Shown here piece by piece: positions 11,001 to 46,366 of a stretch of 46,366 nucleotides of DNA. Both the position numbers and the translations under genes were made by a program. The notes under the pieces were generated by a model that was given only the letters and a program-made list of their open reading frames with translations, was not told the origin of the DNA and did no database searches. Location: NCBI GenBank assembly GCA_964636935.1, contig CAZWVS010000001.1:1-46366 (forward strand), read 5' to 3'. Numbering within the stretch: the stretch's first letter is position 1; every line of letters starts with the position of its first letter. This DNA is from an uncultured Clostridiaceae bacterium (GTDB taxonomy: Bacteria > Bacillota > Clostridia > DUPQ01).

Positions 11001-14000
11001 ATCCGTAAGTGTCTGGGGGGTTGAGAGCGACGATTATGCGATTGCATCAATCAGGGTCGCCTCCACTGTTCCGCCACAGACCCCGGTAATGCTGATCCCA
11101 TTCCCTCAAAAGGGTGCTGTGGAAGTAAGATGGAGCGGTGTGCCCTATGCATCGAAATATACCGTGTTCAAAGTGAAAATACCCAGGGTTAAGGACGAGG
11201 ACCTTGAGCTGGTGCAGTTGGCGGCGCCTGTCATGTTCAACAAGATATTCACGCCCGAGCTGGGTCTCAAGATATATATGCCTGAAATGCAGATAGCGCC
11301 GTTTTCTTCGGACAGACCGGCTTACAGCACTATTGCGGAAGGTATTTCGCTGCCTTCTTCAACCGTGTCAAAAGCAGTCTCGAGTTTCAGCACCATGCGT
11401 CTGCTGGAGCCGGCTGCCATAATGAACGACATACAAATCACACCTCCCGGCGACAAGGTGGATGTTTTCAATCAGATTGTGGACAAGTACGGCATACTCG
11501 CAGCCGCGCCCTACGGCTTTTTGGATTCGGCAGCCGCCAAACTTGTGCTTTGGGAGAAAGTGCATGAAATGGAAATCCCCCTGGGTCAGCAGTCCACCGG
11601 CGAGTTTTCCTTCGTCGATGAAGATGTTGAATTCGGGGATACGTACATGTATACGGTTATTGCTTCGAACGACGACGGATTGTCTTCCGAAAGACCCGAA
11701 CCGGTCAGCGTGTCTCCTAGAAAAGGGGAGGCGTTCCCTCCGGTGACAGGTATAACGGCATCAATTGACGAAGACACCGGACAGCCGGAAATCAGATGGA
11801 ACCCGGCAAAAGACCCCAATCTTTCCGTTAAGGAGAGTGCGGAATTCGTTGCAGGATATATCGTTTACAAAAGCAAGACAAAAGACGGTGAATATCATCA
11901 GGCCAGCCCGTTCCTGACGACAGAGGCATATATAGATGACGAAGCGGATGCGGCGGCCATAAACTGGTATAGGGTCAAGGTCGTGGATGTGGGGGGATAT
12001 ACATCCGATTTTTCCACAGCGGCTTCGACCGGAAATATCAGGGATTTCCTGCTTCCTTCATCAACCTTCCAAAAAAGCATAATAAAACCGAACATAGTGA
12101 TACCGCTTATACCTGCGGGCGATAATGAAGACGGGGCGGATGCGCCGGCCAATCTTACGGCTGACACCCTTTTCACACCCATATTCACTTTGCCGCCCAT
12201 AATAATCAACTTGAATATTCCCGAGGCGGTGAAGATAGCCGGGTTCGATGTGATAAACATCACAACGACAGATACCGGTTCCCCTAAAAAAGGGGAAGGA
12301 GAGCTTGTACTGGCCAATAAATACACTGTTCCGGTCAACCTCACCGTCACATCATGGAACGATCAAAATGAAGTAACCGACGGGTCGTTGACACTTGACA
12401 CCCCGGTCCAGGTCGGAAACACAGGCGTGCATATAACCGGACTTGATGTTTCAACGGCTTCAAACAAGGGGTTTGCGTCGGGTTATGTGCTAAAAGCAGG
12501 GAATCAGCAGAATGAAAACCTCATGGGCGACCTGTACTCCCTCAGATTCAGCAATACCGAGATAAGTCCCGGTGGGGTGATAAAGATAACGGACATTCCC
12601 GAATTCAGGTATGACAACATAAAAATATCGGGGATGGAAAGCATAACTGTCAATTTGAGCGCATTCGATTCAAGCGCGCCCGCGGTGATCCAGGAAGAAA
12701 GCATTCGCAAAGGCGGAAAGACGGTATATTTCCTATTCGGGACAGGATTCATAAATCTTATGCATGGCACCGCTGAAAACGACCTGGGCATGGAGACAAT
12801 GGACAACAAGGGGTTGGAATACGCTTTCAACATAATCAATTTCGACCGTGACGGCCGGATGAACGGCACCATGACTATTACCGAGACCAGAATGATGAGA
12901 ACGGTGATACCCGCGGGATTGGGAATAAAGACATCGGATTCCAAACTCGTCTATTCAAACGGACAGCCGGACAAGACAAACAGCTATATCAAAGGAAAAG
13001 TGATGTTGCCCTTTGACACATTTGTCGACGATGCACCCACATATGTGGATTTCGAGTCCATTGCAAAGACAAGACTGGGTGACACGCTTGTTAACAAGAC
13101 GGATGTCAGCGGAATATTGGGGATGAATCCGGATGCGGTAAAGAGCGGAAGCATGCAGATAACCCCCGTGCAAAAAAGCATAGTGGACGTTGGAATGTTC
13201 TACATTGCGGAACAGGCGCAGATCAACACATTGCTGGTTCTCCCGCTTGAGCTTATAGAGGCTGAATCGGTTTCCAACATACCCATAAACATAACAAACT
13301 GGGGGGGAAGGGGATTTACGGTATCCAACAAGACCCTTATGCCCACCCTTGTCGGAAACGATGACGAGGAGATCGGGATAATCGGCAGCAACATAACGAT
13401 AGACATGGACAGGGAAAGCAGCACAGCCGACGCATTGACCGACGAAACCAAAGACAATCAATGGACGGGAATGATAGTCAAATCGGGAAGGGTGTCACTG
13501 CCGCCCGCCTTTATTAAAACCGAACAGGACAAGAGGGTTTCATTTAATCTCACACCCGGAGACATGATATATGACAGAAACGGATTCTTCTATCAAAGCC
13601 AGGCATATTCGCCGCAAGGGATCCCCGTCAACTTCGGCGACCAGCTGGGTGGGTTCCGCGACGCTTACGCAAACAGCATATACATAGACCTGTATAACAA
13701 CAAGATGAATCTTGAAATCAAGGGAAACGTAGGCATACCCCTGTTCGGCTTCCAAAGGGTCAATGTGACAATTTACACATCGGAGGAACTGGGTAAAATC
13801 GTATGCAGCGTGGAGGAGACCGAAAAATTCGATCCGGCGGGCACGGGAGAGGTATATCTAAGCGTAACCGGAGGGCACCTGCTTCCCGACGGGCTGCATA
13901 TGGACGGAACACTTGATTTGAACTTTGAAGGGGGCATTGAAACCGAAAACGTAAAATTCACCGAACTGATCATACCCTCCGACATGGAAGGATTGAAAAA

Positions 14001-15519
14001 GGAAAACAATGAGGAAGGGCTGCTGGGTTCGGCTTTATTCGACAAACCCTATAAAATCAAATTCCATGACTTTGAAATGGAGATCAGGGCTTTGGCTCTT
14101 GCCACGAAGGAAGGCGGATACAACGTCGCCTCGCTTTCTACCGGTCTGCAGACGGGAATAACAAGGACATTCAAAAGAACCGGCATAACCATGCCCATAA
14201 CCGGAACAGTCCAATATTACTCGACCGACATGTATCTGTGGGGAGGGATGCAGCTTTCCGACACGCTGTCCATAGATACGAAGGAGGATTTCGACAGGGT
14301 CATAATATCCTCTGTGTTCGGAGACCCGTTTATAAATTACAATGAATCCAAATCAAAAATCAATATGGACTTCGAAGAATTCGCGCACATCGATGCGGTG
14401 GCCACACCCAAGCTTGCGGATCCGGACTCGGGAATTGTAGAATATGAAACGGACACACTTGAAATGCTCTTCAATTCGGCAATGGACAAATTCGGTTCAG
14501 TCGAAATCGAAGCAAATGCAAGGCTGGGCTATGACAAGGTCATGAAAAGATTCTTCTTCGCCCTGGCAATTTACTATCACGACCCCTCAGGAGGCATACA
14601 GTTGGGTTATGGCAAAATAAACGATATAACGGGAGTGATAGGATACAATCTCGACATCGAATATACGGAGGAAGAAGGGTATATCTTCCCTGAAGAAAAG
14701 CAGGGGTTGTTCAACTATATAGACACCATGGATGTAAACCGTGATGCGTTTGGCAACTACTTCATGGCGGCGACGGCATGGATGCAGCTGGGGTATGACA
14801 CGGGGTCCATGGAACTTCAACTCGGCGAAGTCAGAAACATGTATTTCGTTGTAGAAAAAGGCCCGACGGTTGAAATGGGCGGAAAATATTACGGGCCTTC
14901 CAAAATAACCTCCGTGATGACGGGAAGCGACCTTAAACATATGGGAACCGTTAGAATCGGTTATTATCACCGCGACCGCCTGTTCAAATTCAGTCTCACG
15001 CTGAATGACTTTGGAATGTACGGTTTCACTTTGAACGGCGATGTGGGGTTTGAAATGGGCCCCGGTTACTGGATGCTGAATGTGGGGTATCCCAACACAC
15101 TTGAAGCACAGCTTGGAAGCATGGTAAATGCCGGATTCGCCCTTGCGATAAAAAACACTTTCCCGCCTACCGAAAACTACATCAAGGCCAAGATGGACTT
15201 TGAATACGATACCGGCTATGTGACAATCGCCATCGTATACTTCAGAGCCTACTTAAGGGTAGGTGGCGAAGGGGAGATACACTTCCCGGGAGACTATCTG
15301 TACCTTTCCGCGTACCTGCAGGGCGGACTGGAAGGCGGAATCAAGGTTGCAGGAAAGAGATATAACATAATTTCCCTGAATCTCGATGCCAGGGGCGAGA
15401 TGGAAAAACACAATAACGATTGGAGGCTTGAAGCAAGAGTCAAGGTAAGGTATCATCTCAGCCTGTTGTTCACCAGTGTGGGAGGCTCGGTGACATGGCA
15501 TATGAAACTGGCATTTTGA
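8047..15519 (+). CDS. giant (2,490 aa) cell-surface lipoprotein with an acidic linker, about 7 FN3-like modules and a large uncharacterised beta-rich C-terminal region
   Basis: Uninterrupted 7.47-kb ORF with a GGGGG SD 7-8 nt upstream. Signal peptide with lipobox 'L-A-G-C' (Cys25). Asp/Glu/Pro-rich low-complexity segment (aa ~26-175). Recurrent FN3-type patterns: 'LLRW..', 'VHLRWAQP...GYYVERR...AVYRVQALD', 'YFYKYWVSAID', 'FRVYKA...YYYYKVTSVS', 'VEVRWSG', 'PEIRWNP...GYIVYKS...WYRVKVVD'. The antisense ORFs are short and compositionally odd. Confidence 0.85.
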   Translation: MKRFKKQLCILLIPVLLSTYMLAGCKKKEKTEESPSPGVEEPVESGRPDNQHGDTDQKPPEEGGDQEPWIPVEQMVEQPSDLSEFLDSKTPGARGLLDSPDIADEILEAESLEDILDEPDDAGRLQEIVEEINEALEDMEGEEDREDAERLGQIKDKIEDLFANAKPTPQQLEASTELKGTWSEPNKVLLRWIPQIEWFPENGYYLYRIIDGEVSVIANDLGTKDRIDQIAGLNLQFSPIVTDLYNQSVLDETKMNIIGVTSLQQFNDMVFGEVILNSDMLKISGQNNFEKKQFNLFQQPETVIEKVPESDIFTNTSIHLATQINTAILPIGSIGLVPETQVPDLITEPALTLPEETVMNILDARNSMLTLANTDSEFAEAVGFGYEDDFGDTKYDINEEIEYVLLPLGEGVEVPSTQNVLDENSREGMYSLKVSYGAETPVETPVDLQGYGADGEVHLRWAQPATEYGASIISGYYVERRMESEQEFTRLNDVPVAVSYMEDENNILYEVADYYVDYDVENGDKAVYRVQALDIFGRLSDYNPDPLSIEVKKTVPPGPPEADQPVLSTEVKNRTESFFDTVKSKYPGENGIIIPITVTTEDSKDCIIYRSAAWGNGSFSQPEEVGRVQVPPERSNIVLEKNGIGSIREIIPRKTDSADTDAVFLDTNVTAGYFYKYWVSAIDDWENESAWSSSKVIGYKTERKPDVPDTAEAFMTFNILPDLSLEPAGFMKGRLIDDKVFSGLNLGGTPSMEGFTPRENVDTTPVVEAMAKNIKIGVSLSDTVRAGIKLVPQLLDIKFSNKPEPKDVHDIIALRESDISPDGTADVSWYHYSGDGLGSYNVYRTYIDGGDINQIMTTPIPDILEDYQWSLVESDTVYNKITDTVDKKSGRTYLYMVSLVPEDTGMEDEDVYDGYVPAGWVRVGWERPGDKQISHFRVYKAEVPYFDNDDPEELEWTMVGDNLKYSTYSEDVDQTHAHYYYYKVTSVSVWGVESDDYAIASIRVASTVPPQTPVMLIPFPQKGAVEVRWSGVPYASKYTVFKVKIPRVKDEDLELVQLAAPVMFNKIFTPELGLKIYMPEMQIAPFSSDRPAYSTIAEGISLPSSTVSKAVSSFSTMRLLEPAAIMNDIQITPPGDKVDVFNQIVDKYGILAAAPYGFLDSAAAKLVLWEKVHEMEIPLGQQSTGEFSFVDEDVEFGDTYMYTVIASNDDGLSSERPEPVSVSPRKGEAFPPVTGITASIDEDTGQPEIRWNPAKDPNLSVKESAEFVAGYIVYKSKTKDGEYHQASPFLTTEAYIDDEADAAAINWYRVKVVDVGGYTSDFSTAASTGNIRDFLLPSSTFQKSIIKPNIVIPLIPAGDNEDGADAPANLTADTLFTPIFTLPPIIINLNIPEAVKIAGFDVINITTTDTGSPKKGEGELVLANKYTVPVNLTVTSWNDQNEVTDGSLTLDTPVQVGNTGVHITGLDVSTASNKGFASGYVLKAGNQQNENLMGDLYSLRFSNTEISPGGVIKITDIPEFRYDNIKISGMESITVNLSAFDSSAPAVIQEESIRKGGKTVYFLFGTGFINLMHGTAENDLGMETMDNKGLEYAFNIINFDRDGRMNGTMTITETRMMRTVIPAGLGIKTSDSKLVYSNGQPDKTNSYIKGKVMLPFDTFVDDAPTYVDFESIAKTRLGDTLVNKTDVSGILGMNPDAVKSGSMQITPVQKSIVDVGMFYIAEQAQINTLLVLPLELIEAESVSNIPINITNWGGRGFTVSNKTLMPTLVGNDDEEIGIIGSNITIDMDRESSTADALTDETKDNQWTGMIVKSGRVSLPPAFIKTEQDKRVSFNLTPGDMIYDRNGFFYQSQAYSPQGIPVNFGDQLGGFRDAYANSIYIDLYNNKMNLEIKGNVGIPLFGFQRVNVTIYTSEELGKIVCSVEETEKFDPAGTGEVYLSVTGGHLLPDGLHMDGTLDLNFEGGIETENVKFTELIIPSDMEGLKKENNEEGLLGSALFDKPYKIKFHDFEMEIRALALATKEGGYNVASLSTGLQTGITRTFKRTGITMPITGTVQYYSTDMYLWGGMQLSDTLSIDTKEDFDRVIISSVFGDPFINYNESKSKINMDFEEFAHIDAVATPKLADPDSGIVEYETDTLEMLFNSAMDKFGSVEIEANARLGYDKVMKRFFFALAIYYHDPSGGIQLGYGKINDITGVIGYNLDIEYTEEEGYIFPEEKQGLFNYIDTMDVNRDAFGNYFMAATAWMQLGYDTGSMELQLGEVRNMYFVVEKGPTVEMGGKYYGPSKITSVMTGSDLKHMGTVRIGYYHRDRLFKFSLTLNDFGMYGFTLNGDVGFEMGPGYWMLNVGYPNTLEAQLGSMVNAGFALAIKNTFPPTENYIKAKMDFEYDTGYVTIAIVYFRAYLRVGGEGEIHFPGDYLYLSAYLQGGLEGGIKVAGKRYNIISLNLDARGEMEKHNNDWRLEARVKVRYHLSLLFTSVGGSVTWHMKLAF

Positions 15520-16094: not shown

Positions 16095-16099
16095 TGGTA

Positions 16100-16316
16100 A
16101 TGCAATGAAGGAGAATATTAACCGGAAGGTTTTGTTGCAGAAAGAAAGCGGTTGATGCGAGCTTTTACAAAAAACCGGTGAACGCTGACTCCCGAGCATC
16201 CTTTCCCAATAAGAAAGGACGAAAACGCCGCGTTAAGGCGCCGAGTGCTTCCGAAAGGAAGAATCAGGGTGGTACCGCGAGTTGCTCTCGTCCCTCAGGG
16301 GATGGGAGTTTTTTGT
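16100..16316 (+). promoter_or_regulatory. T-box riboswitch leader (Ala specifier) with terminator/antiterminator
   Basis: Canonical T-box sequence AAUCAGGGUGGUACCGCGAG at 16262-16281. A downstream hairpin (CUCGUCCC / GGGAUGGGAG) is followed by UUUUUU (16284-16316). The candidate specifier GCU (16184-16186) sits in '...GGUGAAC-GCU-GA...' and matches the downstream alaS. Confidence 0.85.
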
Positions 16317-16338
16317 ATTGAAAAAACAGAGGTGTGTG

Positions 16339-18951
16339 ATGAAGAAGTTGTCATTAAATGAATTGAGAAAAGGCTTTTTGGAGTTTTTCGAAGACAAGGG
16401 TCACCTGGTGGTCCCGAGTTTTTCGCTGGTTCCGGAAAACGACCCCAGCATATTGCTCATAAATGCGGGAATGACCCCGTTAAAGGAATATTTCACAGGC
16501 GCGAAGAAACCCCCGGCATACAGGATGGCCACTTGTCAGAAATGCATCAGGACCCTCGATATCGACAGGGTTGGCAAGACCGACAGGCACGGGACCTTTT
16601 TTGAAATGCTGGGCAACTTTTCATTCGGGGATTATTTCAAAAGCGAAGCCATAAAATGGGCATGGGAGTATTTCACAGAAGTGCTGGATATCCCGGAAGA
16701 GCTTTTATCGGTCTCCGTTTATGAAGAGGACGAAGAGGCCTACGGGATTTGGAGGAACGAAATCGGGCTGCCGGAAGGCAAAATAGTGCGCCTTGGCAAG
16801 GAGGACAATTTCTGGGAACACGGTTCGGGACCTTGCGGCCCCTGTTCCGAAATTTTCTTCGATCGCGGAAGCGACAAGGGCTGCGGGGATGAAAGCTGCG
16901 CGCCCGGATGCGACTGCGACAGGTTTATTGAAGTATGGAACCTTGTTTTCACGCAGTTTGAAAAAACCGAAGACGGCGAATACATACCACTTGAAAAGAA
17001 AAACATAGATACGGGCATGGGGCTGGAAAGGCTGGCCTGCGTAATCCAGGGTGTGGACAACCTTTTTGAAGTGGACACCGTCAAAAGGATACTCGACAAA
17101 GTATGTGAAATTTCAGGTAAAGAATATAGAAAAGATAAAAAAACGGATGAGTCCATACGGTTGATCACCGACCATGTCAGAAGCACTGTGATGATGGTTT
17201 CCGACGGGATAATCCCCTCGAACGAGGGCAGGGGGTATGTGCTTAGAAGGTTGATCAGAAGAGCTGCAAGGCACGGGAAACTTCTGGGAATAGAAGACAA
17301 GTTCCTTGTGCCGCTGGTGAAAACGGCAATCGGGGAATCCATGGACGCCTACCCCGAACTGAATGAAAAAAGCGAATACATTGAAAAAGTAATCGGGATT
17401 GAAGAGGACAGGTTCAGGGACACCGTTGACCAGGGGCTGCAGATCCTGGGTTCTTTCATGGAGCAGGTGCAAAAAGAAGGAGGGGACACACTTGAAGGAT
17501 CAATGGTTTTCCGTCTTCACGACACCTACGGTTTTCCGTATGAGCTGACAGAAGAGATAGCCTCCGAGAGGGGTCTTGAAACCGACCGTGAGGGTTTTGA
17601 AAGGGAAATGGACAAGCAGAAGGAAAAAGCAAGAAAAGCGCAAAAAACGGAAGAAGGTGTCCGGGCCTGGGGCGAAGGTGAACAGGAGTATTTCGAAGGG
17701 CTCGCTCCCACGGTTTTCACCGGCCATGGAAACCTTTCCGATGATGCAAAAGTCATTCGTGTGCTTGTAATGGAAAACGAGATTGAAATTGCGCTGGATA
17801 AAACACCGTTTTACGCCGAAAGCGGAGGCCAGGCGGGGGATACGGGGATTATTGAGTCCGACGGGTTTTCAATGACTGTCAGGGACTGCACAAAAACCCA
17901 TGAAGGCGTTTTCGTCCATAAGGGTGTCATAAACCATGGCGAGGTAAAAGAAGGGGACAGGGTCGTCTGCAGGGTAGACGTAAAAAGAAGGAAAGCGATT
18001 GCTAAAAATCACACAGCGACCCACATATTGCATTACGCATTAAAAGAAGTCCTTGGAGGGCACGTTGCCCAGGCGGGATCATATGTGGGACCGGACAGAC
18101 TCCGTTTCGACTTCAATCACTTTGCGGCCATGACGGGACAGGAAATCCAAAAAGCAGAGAAACTGGTGAACGAAAAGATTTTTGAAGACAAGCCCGTTGA
18201 AACCCGGGAGATGGACATAGACCGGGCCCGTGAAGAGGGTGCCACGGCGCTTTTCGGCGAGAAATACGGGGATAAGGTCCGGGTTGTCAGCACCGGGGGG
18301 TTCAGCATGGAGCTGTGCGGCGGAACACATCTTGACAAAACTTCGGCCGCGGGGTTGTTTGTCATCGCATCTGAAAGCGGCGTGGCCGCCGGGGTCAGGA
18401 GGATTGAGGCGCTTACCGGTGAAAAAGCCCTAGAGTATCTGCTTCAAAGACGTGATCATGTAAAAGAGGTGGCTGATATTGTGCGCTCCGGTGAACATGA
18501 AATAACCGAAAGGGTTAAATCGCTGCAACAGGAGATCAAGGAGTCCAGACGTGAGATTGAAGAGCTTAAAAAAAGGATTGCAAAGGGCTCCGTTTCCAAT
18601 GTGTTTGACAAGCCGGAGGATATAAACGGCACAAAAGTGATTGTTTCTGAAATCGAGGGGGCGGATTCCGACACCCTTCGAACCATGTGCGACGCGGCAA
18701 GGGAGAAGTATGACGATTGCGTGGTTGTGCTCGGCAGCGCAGGCGACAAGGTTGTCTTTACCGCCGCGGCTACAAACAAAGCCGTAAAAAAGGGCATACA
18801 TTCGGGTAAAATAATAGGTGAAGCGGCAAAAATCACAGGCGGAGGCGGAGGCGGAAGGCCGGACATGGCCCAGGCCGGAGGAAAGGATCCGGGAAAATTG
18901 GATGAAGCCCTCGACAGGGCCAGGGATATCATCAGGGAGGTACTGGCATGA
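16339..18951 (+). CDS. alaS: alanine--tRNA ligase
   Basis: 'FFEDKGH', 'NAGMTPLK', 'RHGTFFEMLGNFSFGDYFK'; editing-domain 'HTATHILH' and 'CGGTHL'; C-terminal 'GGGGGGRPDMAQAGG' (DHHA1). I prefer the ATG at 16339 (SD AGAGGTG). The track start at 16282 lies inside the T-box terminator. Confidence 0.95.
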   Translation: MKKLSLNELRKGFLEFFEDKGHLVVPSFSLVPENDPSILLINAGMTPLKEYFTGAKKPPAYRMATCQKCIRTLDIDRVGKTDRHGTFFEMLGNFSFGDYFKSEAIKWAWEYFTEVLDIPEELLSVSVYEEDEEAYGIWRNEIGLPEGKIVRLGKEDNFWEHGSGPCGPCSEIFFDRGSDKGCGDESCAPGCDCDRFIEVWNLVFTQFEKTEDGEYIPLEKKNIDTGMGLERLACVIQGVDNLFEVDTVKRILDKVCEISGKEYRKDKKTDESIRLITDHVRSTVMMVSDGIIPSNEGRGYVLRRLIRRAARHGKLLGIEDKFLVPLVKTAIGESMDAYPELNEKSEYIEKVIGIEEDRFRDTVDQGLQILGSFMEQVQKEGGDTLEGSMVFRLHDTYGFPYELTEEIASERGLETDREGFEREMDKQKEKARKAQKTEEGVRAWGEGEQEYFEGLAPTVFTGHGNLSDDAKVIRVLVMENEIEIALDKTPFYAESGGQAGDTGIIESDGFSMTVRDCTKTHEGVFVHKGVINHGEVKEGDRVVCRVDVKRRKAIAKNHTATHILHYALKEVLGGHVAQAGSYVGPDRLRFDFNHFAAMTGQEIQKAEKLVNEKIFEDKPVETREMDIDRAREEGATALFGEKYGDKVRVVSTGGFSMELCGGTHLDKTSAAGLFVIASESGVAAGVRRIEALTGEKALEYLLQRRDHVKEVADIVRSGEHEITERVKSLQQEIKESRREIEELKKRIAKGSVSNVFDKPEDINGTKVIVSEIEGADSDTLRTMCDAAREKYDDCVVVLGSAGDKVVFTAAATNKAVKKGIHSGKIIGEAAKITGGGGGGRPDMAQAGGKDPGKLDEALDRARDIIREVLA

Positions 18952-21067: not shown

Positions 21068-21958
21068 ATTAAAAACAATCTGGACCAATATCATGTCTTC
21101 TACATCGCCGCGATGCAGGGAAGCTTTTCGAAAGCGGCGGAAATCCTGTTTGTTTCCCAGTCGGCCGTAAGTCAGTCGATCATGCAGCTAGAGAATGCCA
21201 TGGGGACTAAGCTTTTCAGAAGAATACCCCGCGGGATAGAGCTCACCCGGGAGGGCAGGATTCTTCTTGAGCATGTGGAACCCGCTGTCAACCTTTTGAA
21301 AAGCGGGGAAAGGCGCATCAGCGAAAGAATATCAACAAAAAACAAGAATGTAACAATAAGCGCTTCGGATACACACTGCATGTACTATCTGCCCGACCAT
21401 CTGGAAAGATTCAAGTCTCAAAACCCCGATGTCGGAATAATCGTAGCCAACAAGACAACCCTGGAAACCATGAATCTATTGAAGAAGGGTGAAGCCGACA
21501 TAGGTGTGGTGAATCTGCCTGACAAACAGATAAAAAATGTGAGGATATGGGCAAAGAGTGAATTGAATCACTCGTTCATTGCGAAAAAGGGATTAACACA
21601 AGCCGTGAAAAGCCGGAAAAGCCCTGCGCAAATTGCAAAAATGCCGCTGATAATGCTTGAAAAGGGGACGGGTCACAGGAGCCACCTGGATAAGTATTTC
21701 ATGGACAAGGGACTCGAGGTCGAACCGAAAATGGAGCTTGGTTCAATAGAACTGTTGATAAAATTCGCGGCAATGGGCATGGGGGTGAGCTGTGTGGAAA
21801 GCGAGTTTCTGCGAAAAAGCCCGTATTCCCACGAGGTCGAAGCGATACCGGTTAAAAAGGATATAGGGAAAAGATACATAGGTGTGATAACATTGAAAGG
21901 TGTTCCGCTTTCAGGACCGGCGGAAGCATTTGTAAGCTTGATTACGGAGGCCGAATGA
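21068..21958 (+). CDS. LysR-family transcriptional regulator (probable non-canonical ATT start)
   Basis: The HTH 'LDQYHVFYIAAMQGSFSKAAEILFVSQSAVSQSIMQLE' begins upstream of the first ATG (21113). The frame is closed by TGA at 21059-21061. The only SD-spaced initiator is ATT at 21068, 6 nt after AAGGTGA, giving a typical 296-aa LysR length. The C-terminal substrate-binding domain is present. Confidence 0.75.
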   Translation: MKNNLDQYHVFYIAAMQGSFSKAAEILFVSQSAVSQSIMQLENAMGTKLFRRIPRGIELTREGRILLEHVEPAVNLLKSGERRISERISTKNKNVTISASDTHCMYYLPDHLERFKSQNPDVGIIVANKTTLETMNLLKKGEADIGVVNLPDKQIKNVRIWAKSELNHSFIAKKGLTQAVKSRKSPAQIAKMPLIMLEKGTGHRSHLDKYFMDKGLEVEPKMELGSIELLIKFAAMGMGVSCVESEFLRKSPYSHEVEAIPVKKDIGKRYIGVITLKGVPLSGPAEAFVSLITEAE

Positions 21959-24423: not shown

Positions 24424-25230
24424 TCAACGTGTCTTCGTGATGCTGCAGCGGGACAATATTTTTTCAAAACAACGGTTTACAACCGCCCCGTCGGTGGCGC
24501 ATGCATATAGTATCACCGTGCTCTTGAATTCGGGGAAATAGCGTATCATCAGTTTCCCGTGTAGAACAATAGGCGGGTAATCCCCATTTGCCGGCGTGGA
24601 AGGCCGGCCGTATTGAATATAGTTCCTTAAAAATACGGAATATTCGTGGCTGAGTCCGCATGTGGCCATGTCGGCTTCGATGCTGTACCAACCGCTGTAA
24701 CCTATATATTCCTCCGTTTCAACTGAATAACCCGACAGTTTCCAAAGCGGATCGTCACAACCCAGATCCCTTAGGACAAGCCGGGTGTAATCATATTTGA
24801 AAACATCCATGACCTGTTCCATGGACAGTGTGTCTTCTTCAATGAAGCCATAGGGCGAACCGTCGGGAAGGCTCAAAGCATAAGCGCCGTAGAAAGCCGA
24901 ATGATACGGGGAACCCTCGTCAAAAATCATATTTTTGCGGGTGAGCGGGTCGAAGGCGGGAAAAACATATATGACGGACATCTTCACATCTTCATGATAA
25001 TCCGATCTGAATCCGGAGGCATTGTAGACAAACGGGCTCGCAAACCAATCATTTTCAAAGGTGGCAAGGCCGCCGGGCACATATATTTCAAACCCGTTTT
25101 CACTCATGACGCTTTTCGACCGGTGAATCGCTGAATAGACAGGCATTGTCAAAGAGCATCGGAGCGGATAGTAGAACCATATGCTCAAAACAACCACAAC
25201 AGCTAAAATTATTAAGGGCACCCTTTTCAT
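24424..25230 (-). CDS. hypothetical membrane-anchored protein (N-terminal TM/signal anchor, Tyr/Phe/Asp-rich ectodomain)
   Basis: 'MKRVPLIILAVVVVLSIWFYY' signal-anchor, then a 245-aa soluble-looking domain. I prefer the start at 25230 over 25254. No obvious SD precedes either start. Confidence 0.6.
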   Translation of the reverse strand: MKRVPLIILAVVVVLSIWFYYPLRCSLTMPVYSAIHRSKSVMSENGFEIYVPGGLATFENDWFASPFVYNASGFRSDYHEDVKMSVIYVFPAFDPLTRKNMIFDEGSPYHSAFYGAYALSLPDGSPYGFIEEDTLSMEQVMDVFKYDYTRLVLRDLGCDDPLWKLSGYSVETEEYIGYSGWYSIEADMATCGLSHEYSVFLRNYIQYGRPSTPANGDYPPIVLHGKLMIRYFPEFKSTVILYACATDGAVVNRCFEKILSRCSITKTR

Positions 25231-25384
25231 GATTAAATGATAGCACATTTGCATTGTTGTTCGTTGAAAGCAATATCGGCATGTGATATCCTAAAGCCAC
25301 GGGGGATTATAAATATAATCATCGAATCATTCATAAAAATCTTTGACATTCTGCCATAACCCTGAAAAAAGAGGAGGGATTGAG

Positions 25385-37540: not shown

Positions 37541-37573
37541 TTAATCAAAACCTCCGTCGCATGTATCAATTCC

Positions 37574-37582
37574 ATTTTATCA
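37574..37582 (-). promoter_or_regulatory. candidate extended -10 promoter (TGATAAAAT on the minus strand) of the GH gene
   Basis: The reverse complement of 37574-37582 reads TGATAAAAT. It lies about 34 nt upstream of the ATG at 37540, and the -35 position reads only TTTTAC. Confidence 0.45.
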
Positions 37583-37600
37583 GAAACCCCGCCGCTGTAA

Positions 37601-37980
37601 AACAAAGGGTGCCCTAAATTTTAAAACAAGTAAAACAAGGGTGCCCTAAACAGAAATAAAGCTTCATGACGGGTAAAAAAGCGCTAAAAACAAGGATTGA
37701 ACAAAGGGTGCCCTAAATAGAAACAAGGTTTCATGCGGGCAAAGAGCGTTCTGAACGAGAAGCGAACAAAGGGTGCCCTAAACAGAAATAAAGTTTCAAG
37801 ACGGGTAAAAAAGCGCTAAAAACAAGGATTGAACAAAGGGTGCCCTAAATGAAAGCAAAGTTTAATTGCGGTAAAAAAGGCACTTGGAACAAGAAAAAAA
37901 CAAAGGGTGCCCTAAATAGAAACAAGGTTTCATGCGGGCAAAGAGCGTTCTGAACGAGAAGCGAACAAAGGGTGCCCTAT
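37601..37980 (+). repeat. tandem array: 7 same-orientation copies of AAAGGGTGCCCTAAA, ~66-bp units organised as a ~132-bp higher-order repeat
   Basis: Motif copies start at 37604, 37636 (AAGGG variant), 37703, 37768, 37835, 37902 and 37967. 37703-37780 is identical to 37902-37979 (78 bp). 37636-37717 differs from 37768-37849 at 2 positions. Confidence 0.9.
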
Positions 37981-38031
37981 AGAGGGCTAAAGAGGGGATT
38001 TGAATGAAAATGTATTAAGCCGAACAGTTCA

Positions 38032-38060
38032 TTGTAAAATGAGCTTTGATTTAATATAAT
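38032..38060 (+). promoter_or_regulatory. candidate sigma-A promoter of the cmk operon
   Basis: TTGTAA (38032-38037), 17-bp spacer, TATAAT (38055-38060). Confidence 0.55.
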
Positions 38061-38119
38061 GGTGTTAATATTTTAAAAAGACTGTAAACAGGGTAAGAAT
38101 AAAAACACATGGAGGGATT

Positions 38120-42827: not shown

Positions 42828-42914
42828 TGGTGCGAGAAGTGGGATTCGAACCCACACGTACTTGCGTACACTAGAACCTGAATCTAGCGAGTCTGCCAGT
42901 TCCACCATTCTCGC
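42828..42914 (-). tRNA. tRNA-Leu (anticodon CAG), CCA encoded
   Basis: The reverse complement reads GCGAGAA...TTCTCGC-A-CCA (7-bp acceptor). Anticodon arm CTAGA-TTCAGGT-TCTAG gives CAG. Long variable arm TGTACGCAAGTACG; T-arm GTGGG-TTCGAAT-CCCAC. Confidence 0.93.
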
Positions 42915-42975: not shown

Positions 42976-44385
42976 ATGAATAAGGCTTTTGAGGAATATA
43001 AGAAACAGATAAGAAACAAAAAGGTTGCCGCGGTGGGTCTGGGTATAAGCAACCGGCCTCTTTTTAAGTATCTGGCTGACTTGGGAGTCGAGATAACCGG
43101 ATTCGATTCAGCCCCGTATGAAAAACTGAAGTCCTTTATAAAAGAGTTCGAAAAATACGAAAATGTCAGCTTTCATACAGGCCCCGAATATCTGGAGAAT
43201 CTAAAAGGCTATGAAATTATCTTTAAAACACCGGCCATAAGGCCGGATATCAAACCCTTTATTGATGAAATAAGAAGAGGCGCACTGATAACGAGTGAAA
43301 TGGAAGTGTTCATGAAAATGTGTCCCGCAAAAATGGTGGCAGTCACCGGCAGCGACGGCAAAACAACAACAACTACAGTAATCGGCAAAATGCTTGAAAA
43401 GCAGGGATTCAAAGTCTGGGTGGGCGGCAATATAGGAACCCCTCTTTTTGATAAGCTCGATTTGATTAAAAGCAAGGACATGGTTGTGCTCGAGCTTGGA
43501 TCCTTCCAGCTCCAGACCATCAGGGACAAAAGTCCCGATATAGCGGTCATAACAAACATATCTCCCAACCATCTGGATTTCCATAAGGCTATCGACGAAT
43601 ATATATGGTCCAAACAAAACATTTACAGATATCAAAAACCCGATGATGTGCTGGTGTTGAACCTGGACAACAAAACCACGAAAAATTTCGCAAACGACGC
43701 CGATGCCCATATCATCTGGTTTTCAAGAAGAGCCGTGCCGAAAAAGGGCGTCTTCCTGCAAAACGGCATAATCAAATATTCCGATGAAGACGGGATCAGT
43801 GATTTGTTCCCGGCATCCGAAATAGCCGTAAGGGGAATACACAATGTGGAGAATTTTATGGCAGCCATAGCCGCTGTTTACGAATATGTTGATGTGCAAA
43901 GCATGATTGATGTAGCAAGGACATTCAAAGGGGTTGAGCATAGGATAGAACCCGTGATGAAGGTTAAAGGCGTGTGGTATTACAACGACTCCATAGGCAG
44001 TTCGCCAACAAGGACTAAGGCAAGCCTCCACGCATTCGAAGGCAGGTTGATCCTTATAACAGGCGGATATGACAAGAAGATTTCATATGACATGATGGGT
44101 CCGTTGATAATCGAAAAAGTCAAAGGGTTGATATTGCTGGGTGAAACGGCTCCTAAAATCAAAAAGGCATTTGAAGCCGCCAAAAAGAAAACAGGCAAAG
44201 GCGGGGATGTTCCCGTCAAGGAGGTCGCTTCGATTGAAGAGGCGGTGGAGGTAGCAAGCAAAATGGCTGCACAGGGGGACGTGGTGATCCTGTCTCCCGC
44301 CAGCGCAAGTTACGATATGTTCCCCAACTTCGAAATAAGGGGTAGGGTTTTCAAAGAAGCCGTCAAAAAATTGAAAAAACAGTGA
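42976..44385 (+). CDS. murD: UDP-N-acetylmuramoyl-L-alanine--D-glutamate ligase
   Basis: 'VGLGISN' N-terminal Rossmann-like motif, 'VTGSDGKTTTT' P-loop, Mur ligase central and C-terminal domains ('HRIE', 'NDSIGSSPT'); SD GGAGGA. Confidence 0.9.
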   Translation: MNKAFEEYKKQIRNKKVAAVGLGISNRPLFKYLADLGVEITGFDSAPYEKLKSFIKEFEKYENVSFHTGPEYLENLKGYEIIFKTPAIRPDIKPFIDEIRRGALITSEMEVFMKMCPAKMVAVTGSDGKTTTTTVIGKMLEKQGFKVWVGGNIGTPLFDKLDLIKSKDMVVLELGSFQLQTIRDKSPDIAVITNISPNHLDFHKAIDEYIWSKQNIYRYQKPDDVLVLNLDNKTTKNFANDADAHIIWFSRRAVPKKGVFLQNGIIKYSDEDGISDLFPASEIAVRGIHNVENFMAAIAAVYEYVDVQSMIDVARTFKGVEHRIEPVMKVKGVWYYNDSIGSSPTRTKASLHAFEGRLILITGGYDKKISYDMMGPLIIEKVKGLILLGETAPKIKKAFEAAKKKTGKGGDVPVKEVASIEEAVEVASKMAAQGDVVILSPASASYDMFPNFEIRGRVFKEAVKKLKKQ

Positions 44386-44390
44386 AAAAC

Positions 44391-44416
44391 AACCGTCCGT
44401 AAAAGGGCGGTTTTTC
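44391..44416 (+). terminator. rho-independent terminator after murD
   Basis: Stem AACCGTCC / GGGCGGTT (one mismatch) followed by TTTTT. Confidence 0.6.
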
Positions 44417-44447
44417 TCAATCAAATGACACCCTGAGAAAAATATTC

Positions 44448-44656
44448 AAAGGGTGCCCTAAAAAAAGATAGATAAAAGGGTGCCCTAAAAAAGATGGATA
44501 AAAGGGTGCCCTAAAAAACAATGGACAAAAGGGTGCCAAAAAACGGTTAAAAGAAATGAATATGTTTCAACAAAATAAAGGGTGCCCTAAAAAAATCACG
44601 TTATAAATCGATAAAGGGTGCCCTGAACGCTAAACGAAATCAAAGGGTGCCCTAAA
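44448..44656 (+). repeat. second array of the AAAGGGTGCCCTAAA motif (7 same-orientation copies, 26-49-bp spacing)
   Basis: Copies start at 44448, 44475, 44501, 44528 (degenerate, AAAGGGTGCCAAA), 44577, 44613 (..CCCTGAA) and 44642. The first four form a 26-27-bp tandem repeat. Confidence 0.9.
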
Positions 44657-44679: not shown

Positions 44680-44688
44680 TGATAAAAT
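44680..44688 (+). promoter_or_regulatory. candidate extended -10 promoter (TGATAAAAT) of glpK
   Basis: TGATAAAAT lies about 33 nt upstream of the glpK ATG, with SD GGAGGAG at 44705-44711. There is no recognisable -35 hexamer. Confidence 0.45.
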
Positions 44689-44721: not shown

Positions 44722-46203
44722 ATGAAAAAATATGTAATAGCGCTTGATCAGGGAACAACAAGTTCGCGGGCGATAGCTTTTGGAAGGGACGGGATGCCCG
44801 TGGGGACTGAAAATGTAGAATTCAGACAAATTTTCCCCCAGCCGGGATGGGTGGAACATGATCCGGAGGACATATTCAACAGCCAGATGGAAGCTTTGGA
44901 GCTGCTCATTTCCAAAAATGATATAAAGTCCTGTGAAATCCAGGCCATAGGCATCACCAACCAAAGGGAAACCACGGTATTATGGAATAAAAAGACGGGA
45001 AAGCCCGTATACAACGCAATAGTATGGCAATGCAGACGGACGGCAAAAATATGCGAAGACCTCAAAAGCAGGGGCTATTCCGAAAAAATCAAGCAAAAGA
45101 CCGGTCTTTTACCGGATGCGTATTTTTCCGCAACAAAAATAAAATGGATTTTGGACAATGTTCCGGAAGCCGCTCGGCTTGCCCGGACAGGCGAACTTGC
45201 CGCAGGAACGGTTGACTCATGGCTCATGTACCGCATGAGCAAAGGGAAAGTGCATGTGACCGACGAGACAAACGCATCAAGAACCATGTTATACAACATA
45301 CGAAAGAACAAGTGGGATGAACAGCTTTGCGGGATGCTGGAAATCCCGATGGAAATACTGCCGGAAGTAATCGATTCTTCGGGAATTGTGTTCCATTATC
45401 AGATTGATGAAGAAAAAATACCAGTTGCAGGTATCGCCGGGGATCAGCAGGCAGCCCTATTCGGGCAATGTTGTTTCAAAAAAGGCGACACTAAGAACAC
45501 ATATGGGACGGGATGCTTCATATTGATGAACACCGGTGACATCGCAGTCTCTTCGGGAAACGGGCTTCTTACAACTGTAGCATTGAGAATTGACGGGAAA
45601 ACCGAATACGCCCTTGAAGGGAGCGTTTTCAACGCGGGTTCCGTAATCCAGTGGCTGCGGGACAATCTGGGTGTTCTGGACAGTGCTGCAAAAAGCGAGG
45701 AAATGGCAAAATCCGTTGAAGACACCGGCGGGGTATATTTTGTGCCTGCTTTTACCGGTCTGGGGACCCCTTACTGGGATATGTATGCGCGAGGGGCGAT
45801 AACAGGTATAACAAGGGGGACATCCCGCGAGCATATAGTAAGGGCCGGCCTTGAGGCCGTTGCATACAGAAGCGCGGAAATCATAGAAGTGATGATGAAT
45901 GAATCCGGAATAGAATTAAACAGCATGCATGTCGACGGGGGAGCGAGCGCAAACGGATTCCTTATGCAGTTCCAGGCGGACCTAATCGGCGTTGAAATCG
46001 TAAGGCCGGTCGTTCGGGAAACCACAGCACTGGGAGCGGCATTTCTCGCAGGCCTTGCAACGGGCTTCTGGAAAAGCAAAGATGAAATAGCTGCGCTTAT
46101 GCCCATAGACAAAACCTACGTGCCGGAATGCGATGAAAATGTGAGGATGAAAAAACTCGACCGGTGGCGGCAAGCCGTCAAAAACGTGCGAGGCTGCCGA
46201 TAA
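44722..46203 (+). CDS. glpK: glycerol kinase
   Basis: 'ALDQGTTSSR', 'GITNQRETT', 'GDQQAALFGQ', 'VDGGAS' FGGY-kinase motifs. I prefer the ATG at 44722; the TTG at 44716 is also possible. Confidence 0.93.
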   Translation: MKKYVIALDQGTTSSRAIAFGRDGMPVGTENVEFRQIFPQPGWVEHDPEDIFNSQMEALELLISKNDIKSCEIQAIGITNQRETTVLWNKKTGKPVYNAIVWQCRRTAKICEDLKSRGYSEKIKQKTGLLPDAYFSATKIKWILDNVPEAARLARTGELAAGTVDSWLMYRMSKGKVHVTDETNASRTMLYNIRKNKWDEQLCGMLEIPMEILPEVIDSSGIVFHYQIDEEKIPVAGIAGDQQAALFGQCCFKKGDTKNTYGTGCFILMNTGDIAVSSGNGLLTTVALRIDGKTEYALEGSVFNAGSVIQWLRDNLGVLDSAAKSEEMAKSVEDTGGVYFVPAFTGLGTPYWDMYARGAITGITRGTSREHIVRAGLEAVAYRSAEIIEVMMNESGIELNSMHVDGGASANGFLMQFQADLIGVEIVRPVVRETTALGAAFLAGLATGFWKSKDEIAALMPIDKTYVPECDENVRMKKLDRWRQAVKNVRGCR

Positions 46204-46216
46204 GCATAATTGTCAA

Positions 46217-46244
46217 TTGACACAATGCGGTTAATTGATATAAT
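46217..46244 (+). promoter_or_regulatory. sigma-A promoter upstream of a tRNA gene (cluster)
   Basis: TTGACA (46217-46222), 16-bp spacer, TATAAT (46239-46244). The -35 is embedded in the palindrome TGTCAATTGACA (46211-46222). Confidence 0.6.
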
Positions 46245-46313: not shown

Positions 46314-46366
46314 GCGGGTGTAGTTCAGTGGTAGAACACCAGCTTCCCAAGCTGGTTATGAGGGTT
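46314..46366 (+). tRNA. tRNA-Gly (anticodon CCC), 3' part truncated by the window end
   Basis: GCGGGTG acceptor 5' half, D-arm TAGTTCAGTGGTAGAACA. Anticodon arm CCAGC-TTCCCAA-GCTGG gives CCC. The sequence ends within the T-arm. Confidence 0.85.

What the first reader, a model, noticed from the sequence alone, without database searches (positions are those of the whole stretch)
44448..44656. Second array of the same motif, directly upstream of glpK
The identical 15-mer recurs 7 times, all in the + orientation, between the murD terminator and glpK, about 6.5 kb from the first array. The architecture differs here: four copies are in a tight 26-27-bp tandem, then come three at 49/36/29-bp spacing. 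The spacers are A-rich and unrelated to those of array 1, so only the 15-mer itself is conserved between the two loci. That pattern argues selection acts on the motif and not on a mobile unit carrying it. A 12-nt core such as AAAGGGTGCCCT is not expected by chance even once in a window this size.
Basis: seen in the sequence. Interest (0 to 1): 0.7.

Follow-up and report, generated by a model that had tools for sequence, protein, structure and literature searches.

The report
Clade-wide 14-base motif array
A 14-base DNA word that stays letter-perfect across a group of uncultured Clostridia, even inside genes, has been copied seven times in front of the glycerol kinase gene; it is most likely a docking site for an unidentified factor, not a glycerol-specific switch.

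Summary
Six exact copies and one decayed copy of AAAGGGTGCCCT lie on the + strand at 44448-44656, between the murD terminator and glpK, with spacings of 27/26/27/49/36/29 bp. No such copy is expected by chance.

The motif is not specific to glpK. It is an asymmetric 14-mer, AAGGGTGCCCTRAA, found across a family-level clade of uncultured Clostridia that share synteny with this contig. It occurs there in two forms:
- Tandem arrays with periods of 17-67 bp, whose spacers are unrelated between loci and between orthologous loci.
- Single copies inside genes, in all three reading phases. At orthologous positions the motif is 98% conserved while its flanks are 68% identical.

The closest relative (MurD 81% identical) has one copy before glpK. 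Five more distant relatives have none, so this array is a lineage-specific local amplification of one site.

Arrays sit downstream of terminators or between divergent promoters. The copy nearest the promoter usually lies about -45 to -60, or inside the promoter spacer.

My best reading (about 0.45) is that these are recognition sites for one unidentified sequence-specific DNA-binding factor acting at many promoters. Rivals are an RNA-level element, a repeat driven by a RAYT-like enzyme, and a chromosome-organisation or titration site. No match was found in Rfam, phages, plasmids, viral contigs or the literature.

The parts
44448..44656 (+). Array 2: 6 exact copies and 1 decayed copy of AAAGGGTGCCCT(R)AA. 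Copies start at 44448, 44475, 44501, 44528 (decayed), 44577, 44613 and 44642.
44391..44420 (+). Intrinsic terminator of murD: hairpin AACCGUCC-GUAAAA-GGGCGGUU followed by a U-run.
   Evidence: -14.8 kcal/mol, z = -3.6. L108 has the homologous hairpin.
44680..44688 (+). Candidate extended -10 element (TGaTAAAAT) of glpK. It would place the centre of the last motif copy at about -47. This is inferred by eye; the consensus scan did not report it because the -35 is poor.
   Evidence: Sequence; not listed.
44722..46203 (+). glpK (glycerol kinase), with GGAGG 11 nt before the ATG.
   Evidence: TIGR01311, 702 bits.
42976..44385 (+). murD.
   Evidence: TIGR01087, 363.7 bits.
37604..37981 (+). Array 1: 7 copies of the same motif with a 65-67 bp period and a 132-bp higher-order unit. 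It lies between two predicted divergent promoters.
   Evidence: Predicted promoters at 37601-37574 (-) and 38032-38060 (+).
25215..25226 (-). Single copy forming codons 2-5 (K R V P) of a 268-aa membrane-protein gene (24424-25230, -). The same arrangement occurs in the orthologues in L008, L011 and L030.

Best explanation
The array is a local, lineage-specific tandem amplification of one ancestral copy of a 14-nt asymmetric cis-element, AAGGGTGCCCTRAA. That element is a genome-dispersed recognition site in a family-level clade of uncultured Clostridia.

Shown:
- The motif is kept by purifying selection at the nucleotide level, in intergenic DNA and inside genes.
- Arrays turn over quickly in period, spacer and copy number, while the motif does not change.
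- The site before glpK went from 0 copies (five relatives) to 1 (L108) to 6+1 (this contig).
- The site before cmk went from 1 copy (L117, L118) to 5 (L108) to 7 (this contig).

Inferred:
- Each copy is bound by one unidentified sequence-specific trans-acting factor, most likely a protein that reads double-stranded DNA.
- Single sites near promoters modulate transcription initiation of the adjacent genes. The factor would therefore have a broad, mixed regulon of which glpK is one member.
- Arrays arise by slippage or unequal crossing-over around a bound site. They persist because several sites increase occupancy or titrate the factor.
- For glpK, the last copy would sit at about -47 from the start implied by the TGaTAAAAT element. 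That position fits recruitment or activation better than occlusion.
For: Motif definition: 127 distinct sites give near-invariant AAGGGTGCCCT, then R, A, A. The centre of GGGNNCCC is TG/CA in 136 of 170 cases.

Selection: at seven orthologous intragenic sites in L007, L025 and L112 the motif is 98% identical and the flanks 68%. The copies fall in all three phases, encoding RVP, GCP or KGAL. In L008 and L030 the LysR helix-turn-helix reads GSFSKGALKLF, where the window has the canonical GSFSKAAEILF.

Array turnover with a constant motif.

Amplification history.

Position: arrays follow terminators (murD; ppdK in L035, L049 and L006) or lie between divergent promoters. The centre of the promoter-proximal copy lies at about:
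- -52 in L049 (tool promoter 1376-1405)
- -58 before the RAYT-like gene in L007
- -57 before cmk in L108
- -43 before the 708-aa gene

Evidence for reading of duplex DNA:
- In L061 an inverted copy lies within a 20-bp -35/-10 spacer.
- Before the MKRVP genes the core lies 7 nt upstream of a -10-like CATAAT or CATATT.
- At the orthologous cmk-side site the copy is on opposite strands in L117 and L118.

The minimum period of 17-18 bp (L035, L061) fits a footprint of 17 bp or less. Periods show no helical phasing, so binding is probably site by site.
Against: - No binding protein is identified, and nothing in the 46-kb contig is an obvious candidate.
- Sites are far more exact (about 26 bits) than typical regulator operators.
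- The logo is asymmetric, unlike sites of dimeric helix-turn-helix proteins.
- Intragenic copies are mostly on the sense strand (about 14 to 4). Copies in co-directional spacers point with the genes. A pure duplex-binding model does not need this.
- In L108 the glpK copy lies 20 nt before the ATG with no room for a promoter downstream of it, so there it is probably transcribed.
- The genes next to the sites have no common function.
- Most promoter positions are consensus predictions or my own reading, not mapped transcription starts.
Confidence: 0.45

Rival explanations
1. RNA-level element. The motif works in transcripts as the binding site of an RNA-binding protein or as the pairing site of a small RNA. 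Arrays would act as multivalent leaders or sponges, and copies next to start codons would control translation.
For: - Intragenic copies are biased towards the sense strand (about 14 to 4).
- The motif overlaps codons 2-5 of the MKRVP gene in four genomes, and that gene has no Shine-Dalgarno sequence.
- Copies lie 20-22 nt before the ATG of glpK in L108 and of the M55 peptidase gene in three genomes.
- The exactness of a 14-mer suits base pairing.
- AGGGUGCCCU is self-complementary only on the sense strand, through G.U pairs. Sense RNA of array 2 folds at -74.6 kcal/mol (z = -4.3); antisense folds at -53.9 (z = -1.5).
Against: - Arrays 1 and 2, and the arrays in L035, L049 and L108, lie upstream of the predicted promoters and directly after terminators or between divergent promoters. 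They would be transcribed only by read-through.
- Antisense copies in lepA and in L035/L049 are conserved as well.
- The cmk-side site is inverted in L117.
- No Rfam family matches.
- The better folding of the sense strand follows automatically from a TG centre.
Confidence: 0.2
2. Non-transcriptional DNA site. The motif is a loading, anchoring or titration site for a chromosome-organisation or replication-control protein. It would resemble parS/NBS sites, DnaA-box clusters or plasmid centromere arrays, and the arrays would be high-avidity sinks.
For: - Near-exact sites are conserved inside genes at orthologous positions, as with parS.
- There are dense local islands, about 10 copies in 7 kb from DegT to hemN in four genomes.
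- Tandem direct arrays of 5-9 or more sites resemble sopC or iteron arrays.
- The neighbouring genes have no functional theme.
Against: - The logo is not a palindrome, so it does not look like a ParB-type site.
- No par, rep or ParB-like gene is in the window.
- No similar array occurs in plasmids or phages.
- The sites show a marked preference for promoter-proximal positions.
Confidence: 0.15
3. Drive-maintained or selfish repeat. The motif would be spread and kept by an enzyme and not by host benefit. Candidates are the RAYT-like HUH-Y1 protein found in motif-rich relatives (a REP-like system) or an uptake or repair bias (USS-like). Arrays would be by-products of nicking or stalling at the site.
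For: - A RAYT-like gene with intact HxH and Tyr motifs and an IS200/RAYT fold lies between hemN and hrcA in L007, L025 and L112. A motif copy sits about 58 bp upstream of its start, and the densest motif island is next to it.
- No homologue was found on the 2.45-Mb contig, whose two sampled loci (42 kb) have no motif.
- Group 1 RAYTs are reported in Clostridia with moderately repeated flanking 16-mers (PMC5581495).
- The motif overrides conserved residues, and its dominant frame K-G-A-L-K resembles how uptake sequences sit in genes.
Against: - The motif cannot fold alone into a hairpin.
- It is not confined to extragenic DNA.
- Arrays are direct, not alternating.
- The palindrome at the RAYT-like gene (ATGGTAAAWTTTACCAT) is a different sequence and occurs only there.
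- Site density is very uneven (1 non-array copy in 46 kb here), unlike uptake sequences.
- The lepA and LysR copies are substitutions, not insertions.
- Whether the window's genome has the RAYT-like gene is unknown.
Confidence: 0.12
4. Neutral minisatellite. Ordinary tandem duplication of a stretch that happens to contain this sequence, with no function.
For: The first four copies are a plain 26-27 bp tandem repeat. Metagenomes contain unrelated satellites that happen to hold the same 11-mer.
Against: - The same 14-mer appears with unrelated spacers in a second array, at a start codon, and in at least 10 other genomes of the clade.
- Orthologous intragenic copies are conserved.
- No copy is expected by chance.
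Confidence: 0.03

Closest known systems
REP/BIME elements with their RAYT transposases (Enterobacteria, Pseudomonas)
   Same: Both are short, genome-dispersed, lineage-specific repeats that cluster in intergenic DNA just after terminators. A RAYT-like HUH-Y1 gene with a repeat copy beside it exists in relatives. Group 1 RAYTs occur in Clostridia (PMC5581495).
   Different: REPs are 20-40 nt hairpin-forming palindromes, strictly extragenic, and alternate in orientation within BIMEs. Here the unit is a 14-mer that cannot fold alone, the arrays are direct, and many copies lie inside genes.
DNA uptake sequences (USS of Pasteurellaceae, DUS of Neisseriaceae)
   Same: Both have an exact 9-12 nt core with an A/T-rich flank. 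Both occur in coding DNA in several frames with one preferred harmless peptide, are conserved at orthologous positions, and are clade-specific.
   Different: Uptake sequences are spread fairly evenly at about one per kb and do not form tandem arrays. Here density is very uneven and arrays dominate. No sequence-specific uptake is known in Firmicutes (own knowledge).
Iteron and centromere-type arrays (F sopC, P1 incA, pSK41 parC, omega-binding heptads) and chromosomal DnaA-box clusters
   Same: Both are tandem direct repeats of one asymmetric protein-binding site, with 5-12 copies and a period of roughly 17-43 bp. Both can act as high-avidity or titrating platforms, and some also act as promoter operators.
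   Different: Those arrays lie beside their rep or par genes on a replicon or at oriC. Here the arrays lie between housekeeping genes at several chromosomal loci. No partner gene is nearby, and the spacers evolve freely.
Regulon operators of global transcription factors
   Same: Sites lie at about -45 to -60 or inside promoter spacers. They are conserved before orthologous genes (the cmk-side site in four relatives).
   Different: Information content and exactness are far higher than usual. Amplification to 5-9 tandem copies, conserved intragenic copies that override protein sequence, and the lack of a functional theme among neighbouring genes are also unusual.

Membership tests
REP/BIME (RAYT-associated) | The unit is an imperfect palindrome that folds by itself into a hairpin. 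| tested here: not met
   The core AGGG-TG-CCCT would leave a 2-nt loop. No inverted repeats were found in either array.
REP/BIME (RAYT-associated) | Strictly extragenic. | tested here: not met
   Copies lie inside GDSL-like, M55, lepA, hemN, LysR and DegT genes in three phases.
REP/BIME (RAYT-associated) | Copies in clusters alternate in orientation. | tested here: not met
   All copies within each array are on the same strand.
REP/BIME (RAYT-associated) | A single-copy RAYT gene is flanked by the repeat. | tested here: inconclusive
   In L007, L025 and L112 one copy or variant lies upstream of a RAYT-like gene, and L007 has a 3-mismatch copy downstream. The rest of the window's genome is not available.
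DNA uptake sequences (USS/DUS) | Exact short core in both coding and non-coding DNA, conserved among relatives. | tested here: met
DNA uptake sequences (USS/DUS) | High and roughly even density across the genome (about one per kb). | tested here: not met
   The window has 1 non-array copy in 46 kb. L015 has none in 7.7 kb outside its array. L007 has 9 in 8 kb.
DNA uptake sequences (USS/DUS) | Sequence-biased DNA uptake by the competence machinery. | not testable with these tools
   This needs uptake assays.
Iterons / plasmid centromere arrays | Tandem direct repeats of one protein-binding site. | tested here: met
   This covers architecture only: 5-9 direct copies with periods of 17-67 bp.
Iterons / plasmid centromere arrays | Located beside the cognate rep or par gene on a replicon. 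| tested here: not met
   The neighbours are murD, glpK, cmk and a 708-aa gene. No Rep or Par domain is in the window. No plasmid or phage match was found.
ParB-family sites (parS / NBS) | A 16-bp near-perfect palindrome. | tested here: not met
   The logo is asymmetric: AA on the left versus RAA on the right, and the centre is always TG.
CRISPR array | Repeats of 23-50 nt, unique spacers of similar length, and cas genes. | tested here: not met
   The conserved unit is 14-17 nt. Spacers within an array are copies of one another. No cas domains were found.
Described RNA families (Rfam 15) | A match at the gathering score. | tested here: not met
   The best hits at E up to 10 score 12-17 bits against cut-offs of 39-100.
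Operator of a transcription-factor regulon | Sites at fixed promoter-relative positions and conserved before orthologous genes. | tested here: inconclusive
   The cmk-side site is conserved in the window, L108, L117 and L118. The glpK site is conserved only in L108. Positions rest on predicted promoters.
Operator of a transcription-factor regulon | An identified cognate DNA-binding protein. | not testable with these tools
   The whole genomes of the clade are not available to these tools. This needs pull-down or DAP-seq.

The most novel reading that the evidence does not exclude
The 14-mer is a new kind of genome-wide element that is written or maintained by an enzyme-driven or guide-driven process, and not by ordinary operator selection. 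One possibility is recognition by the clade's domesticated RAYT-like HUH enzyme. Another is recognition by an RNA-guided DNA binder, which would explain the letter-perfect asymmetric sites. In either case nicking or stalling at bound sites would seed the fast-evolving tandem arrays. That would make it a Firmicute counterpart of the REP/RAYT or USS systems with a different architecture: direct arrays, a non-hairpin unit, and tolerated inside genes.
Probability: 0.12. Interest if true: 0.8.

Novelty: new variant of a known kind. Interest (0 to 1): 0.6.

Why it matters
If the reading holds, a whole clade of uncultured Clostridia carries an undescribed high-information DNA word. The word is under strong enough pressure to rewrite conserved protein residues, and it repeatedly amplifies into arrays next to promoters.

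Finding its partner would reveal one of three things: a new global regulator or nucleoid factor with unusually stringent recognition, or a new repeat-maintenance system. It would also explain a recurrent cause of assembly breaks in these MAGs, since several arrays lie at contig ends.

For annotation, it warns against reading such arrays as gene-specific switches.

Tried and rejected
- Rfam at gathering score and at E up to 10: nothing relevant.
- Exact-protein look-ups of murD and glpK found no other record of the source genome. The contig is the whole record.
- Motif-pair scan of IMG/VR viral contigs: 0 hits.
- blastn of the array against plasmids and phages: only a chance 28-nt hit.
- Literature search for the 9-mer and the 11-mer: only primers and eukaryotic sites.
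- Sigma-54 (-24/-12), SigH, ECF sigma promoters, the T-box sequence, Shine-Dalgarno mimicry, CIRCE, CsoR-type and MerR-type operators were compared by eye. None fits the spacing or the sequence, except a loose MerR-like placement in L061.
- CRISPR rejected: the unit is too short and the spacers are duplicated.
- Transposon ends rejected: the two arrays are direct, not inverted.
- Helical phasing of array periods: none (17-67 bp).
- Most metagenome hits are unrelated satellites, or high-GC chance pairs, that contain the 11-mer with different flanks.
- Pfam and NCBIfam give nothing for the 708-aa protein, the MKRVP protein or the C-terminal half of the RAYT-like protein. PDB sequence search was uninformative.
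- The global alignment of the murD-glpK spacers was not useful because of the length difference.

Full report
**Observation.** The region 44448-44656 holds six exact copies of AAAGGGTGCCCT on the + strand, starting at 44448, 44475, 44501, 44577, 44613 and 44642. A decayed copy (AAAGGGTGCCAA) starts at 44528. The spacings are 27/26/27/49/36/29 bp, as reported.
- The extended form AAGGGTGCCCTRAA occurs 12 times in the window and never in 100 shuffles.
- The first four copies are a 26-27 bp tandem repeat. The last three have unrelated spacers.
- The array lies between the murD terminator and glpK (ATG 44722).
- Array 1 (37604-37981) has seven copies at 65-67 bp, with spacers unrelated to those of array 2.
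- A fourteenth copy at 25215 (-) forms codons 2-5 (K R V P) of a 268-aa membrane-protein gene.

**The contig.** The window is an entire 46,366-bp MAG contig. Its gene content is typical of Clostridia and includes cmk-plsC-ispH/rpsA, murD, glpK and a T-box alaS. The + strand is the leading strand, with GC skew of +0.07 to +0.18 throughout.

**The motif is clade-wide.** A scan of one genome per species for two copies 12-42 nt apart found arrays in several uncultured Clostridia MAGs: JAFGQE01, JAFGIJ01, DAINQB01, CAYYXJ01 and JAWOIG01. The metagenome scan added more (L035, L049, L061, L070, L042, L088, L089, L096, L078), along with many unrelated satellites.
- These genomes share the window's gene order purA-LysR-engB-DUF4153-MKRVP gene / SLH protein-flavodoxin-AP_endonuc_2. 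They are therefore relatives at roughly family level.
- Nearly every GGGTGCCC in them carries the same context.
- 127 distinct sites give t-y-m-A-A-G-G-G-T-G-C-C-C-T-R-A-A-w, with 14 near-invariant positions. The logo is asymmetric, with an invariant TG centre.

**Arrays turn over; the motif does not.**
- Periods are 17-18, 20, 23, 25, 26-27, 30-33, 37, 44-47 and 65-67 bp.
- Arrays in one genome have unrelated spacers.
- Orthologous arrays differ in period and spacer. Upstream of the MKRVP gene the period is 32 bp in L005, 33 bp in L021 and 25 bp in L008, and L011 and L030 have two copies. In the 708-aa gene/cmk spacer it is 65-67 bp here and 23 bp in L108.
- Several arrays end contigs.

**Selection at the nucleotide level.** In the DegT-GDSL-M55-lepA-hemN cluster, copies occupy the same positions in L007, L025, L078/L096 and L112. 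They fall in three reading phases (RVP, GCP, KGAL), and one is antisense in lepA.
- Over seven orthologous sites in three genomes the 11-mer is 98% identical, and the flanking coding DNA is 68% identical.
- The lepA copy uses fixed codons for the conserved Q-G-T-L.
- In L008 and L030 the LysR helix-turn-helix reads GSFSKGALKLF, where the window keeps the canonical GSFSKAAEILF. The motif can therefore override protein preference. These are substitutions, not insertions.

**Orthologous murD-glpK and cmk spacers.**

| Locus | MurD identity | cmk-side site | glpK-side site |
|---|---|---|---|
| Window | - | 7 copies, 65-67 bp | 6+1 copies |
| L108 | 81% | 5 copies, 23 bp | 1 copy, 20 nt before the ATG, in a 77-bp spacer |
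| L117 | 72% | 1 exact copy | none |
| L118 | 71% | 1 exact copy, opposite orientation to L117 | none |
| L109-L111 | about 75% | none | none |

- L111 and L114 come from the same 2.45-Mb contig and together have no exact copy in 42 kb.
- The glpK array is therefore a recent amplification of a single site that is itself young. The cmk-side site is older.

**Position relative to transcription signals.** Arrays follow terminators (murD; ppdK in L035, L049 and L006) or lie between divergent promoters.
- Tool-predicted promoters flank array 1 at 37601-37574 (-) and 38032-38060 (+).
- Further predicted promoters lie downstream of the arrays in L108 (1542-1570) and L049 (1376-1405), and downstream of the hemN-stop copy in L007 (1584-1555).
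- These place the nearest copy at about -43 to -58.
- For glpK I infer a TGaTAAAAT extended -10 at 44680-44688, which places the last copy near -47. The scan did not report this element.
- Before the MKRVP genes the core lies 7 nt upstream of a -10-like hexamer, and a second copy 44 bp downstream overlaps the start codon.
- In L061 an inverted copy lies inside a 20-bp promoter spacer.

**Orientation.**
- Intragenic copies are mostly on the sense strand (about 14 to 4 non-redundant sites).
- In co-directional spacers, copies point with the genes (five sites; one possible exception is L010).
- Divergent spacers are uninformative on this point.
- Most genes are on the leading strand, so coupling to transcription and coupling to replication cannot be separated with these data.

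**Interpretation.** The data firmly support a functional cis-element that is not specific to glpK.
- I favour recognition by one sequence-specific DNA-binding factor acting at many promoters, with arrays as amplified, high-avidity versions of single sites (confidence about 0.45). The grounds are the promoter-proximal placement, the use of both orientations at promoters, a footprint of 17 bp or less, and arrays that appear to be untranscribed.
- An RNA-level role (0.2) is kept alive by three things: the sense bias, the copies next to start codons, and the sense-only self-complementarity.
- A non-transcriptional organiser or titration site (0.15) and a repeat maintained by drive or by a RAYT-like enzyme (0.12) remain possible.

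**Side lead: the RAYT-like gene.** Motif-rich relatives carry a conserved HUH-Y1 gene between hemN and hrcA.
- It has intact catalytic motifs and an IS200/RAYT fold.
- It has a private palindrome at its -10.
- A motif copy lies upstream of it.

**Comparison with known systems.** The element shares features with REP/BIME, USS/DUS, iteron or centromere arrays, and regulon operators, but it fails at least one defining feature of each of the first three (see the membership table). Nothing similar was found in Rfam, viral contigs, phages, plasmids or the searchable literature.

**Verdict.** The glpK-specific reading is not supported. I rate it a new variant of a known kind (dispersed protein-site or repeat families), of moderate to high interest because its mechanism and its partner are unknown.

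Noticed in passing
window 37541-38119; L109 4187-4606, L111 4711-5130, L117 2577-2996, L118 3607-4026: Five relatives carry a hutP-family gene between the 708-aa gene and cmk. It is missing in the window and in L108, the two genomes where the single motif site of that spacer became a 7-copy or 5-copy array.
   Followed up: partly
L007 758-1531 (-), L025 49-813 (-), L112 5607-6374 (+): A RAYT-like HUH-Y1 gene lies between hemN and hrcA. It has invariant HxH and Tyr motifs and an IS200/IS608/RAYT fold. A palindrome ATGGTAAAWTTTACCAT over its -10 occurs nowhere else in the fetched DNA. A motif copy lies about 58 bp upstream, and the densest motif island is next to it.
   Followed up: partly
window 24424-25254 (-): The 268-aa membrane-protein gene has no recognisable Shine-Dalgarno sequence before its ATG. 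Codons 2-5 are the motif. Its orthologues carry 2-9 motif copies directly upstream. The protein has no Pfam or NCBIfam match.
   Followed up: partly
L008 7755 (-), L030 1715 (+); window 21113-21958: In two relatives the LysR helix-turn-helix is recoded to hold the motif (SKGALKLF instead of SKAAEILF). In the window's LysR gene the helix-turn-helix begins upstream of the first ATG, so its start codon is unclear.
   Followed up: partly
L061 4749-4866 / L070 4840-4957: A divergent spacer holds three to four direct copies at an 18-bp period. One inverted copy lies inside a TTGACT-N20-TAGAAT promoter-like site. This placement is typical of MerR-type regulators.
   Followed up: no
window 16096-16298: T-box leader (120.6 bits) before alaS (16282-18951).
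   Followed up: no
window 42828-42914 (-) and 46314-46366 (+): tRNA-Leu(CAG) lies antisense between the alcohol dehydrogenase gene and murD. A tRNA cut by the contig end lies behind a perfect TTGACA-16-TATAAT promoter (46217-46244).
   Followed up: no
window 8047-15519 (+): A 2490-aa ORF has no family match at useful significance. The neighbouring 634-aa protein carries SLH domains, so this is probably a cell-surface cluster.
   Followed up: no
L033, L034, L066, L067 (20-bp unit); L036, L043, L044, L055 and others (70-76 bp); L091 (42 bp): These are unrelated tandem satellites in metagenomes that happen to contain AAGGGTGCCCT with different flanks. A scan for motif pairs alone is therefore not specific to this clade.
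   Followed up: partly
L118 1612, L109/L110 2148, L025 880, L112 5530: The one-mismatch variant AAGGCTGCCCT recurs at orthologous positions, inside the 708-aa gene and before the RAYT-like gene. It may be a second accepted form of the site.
   Followed up: no
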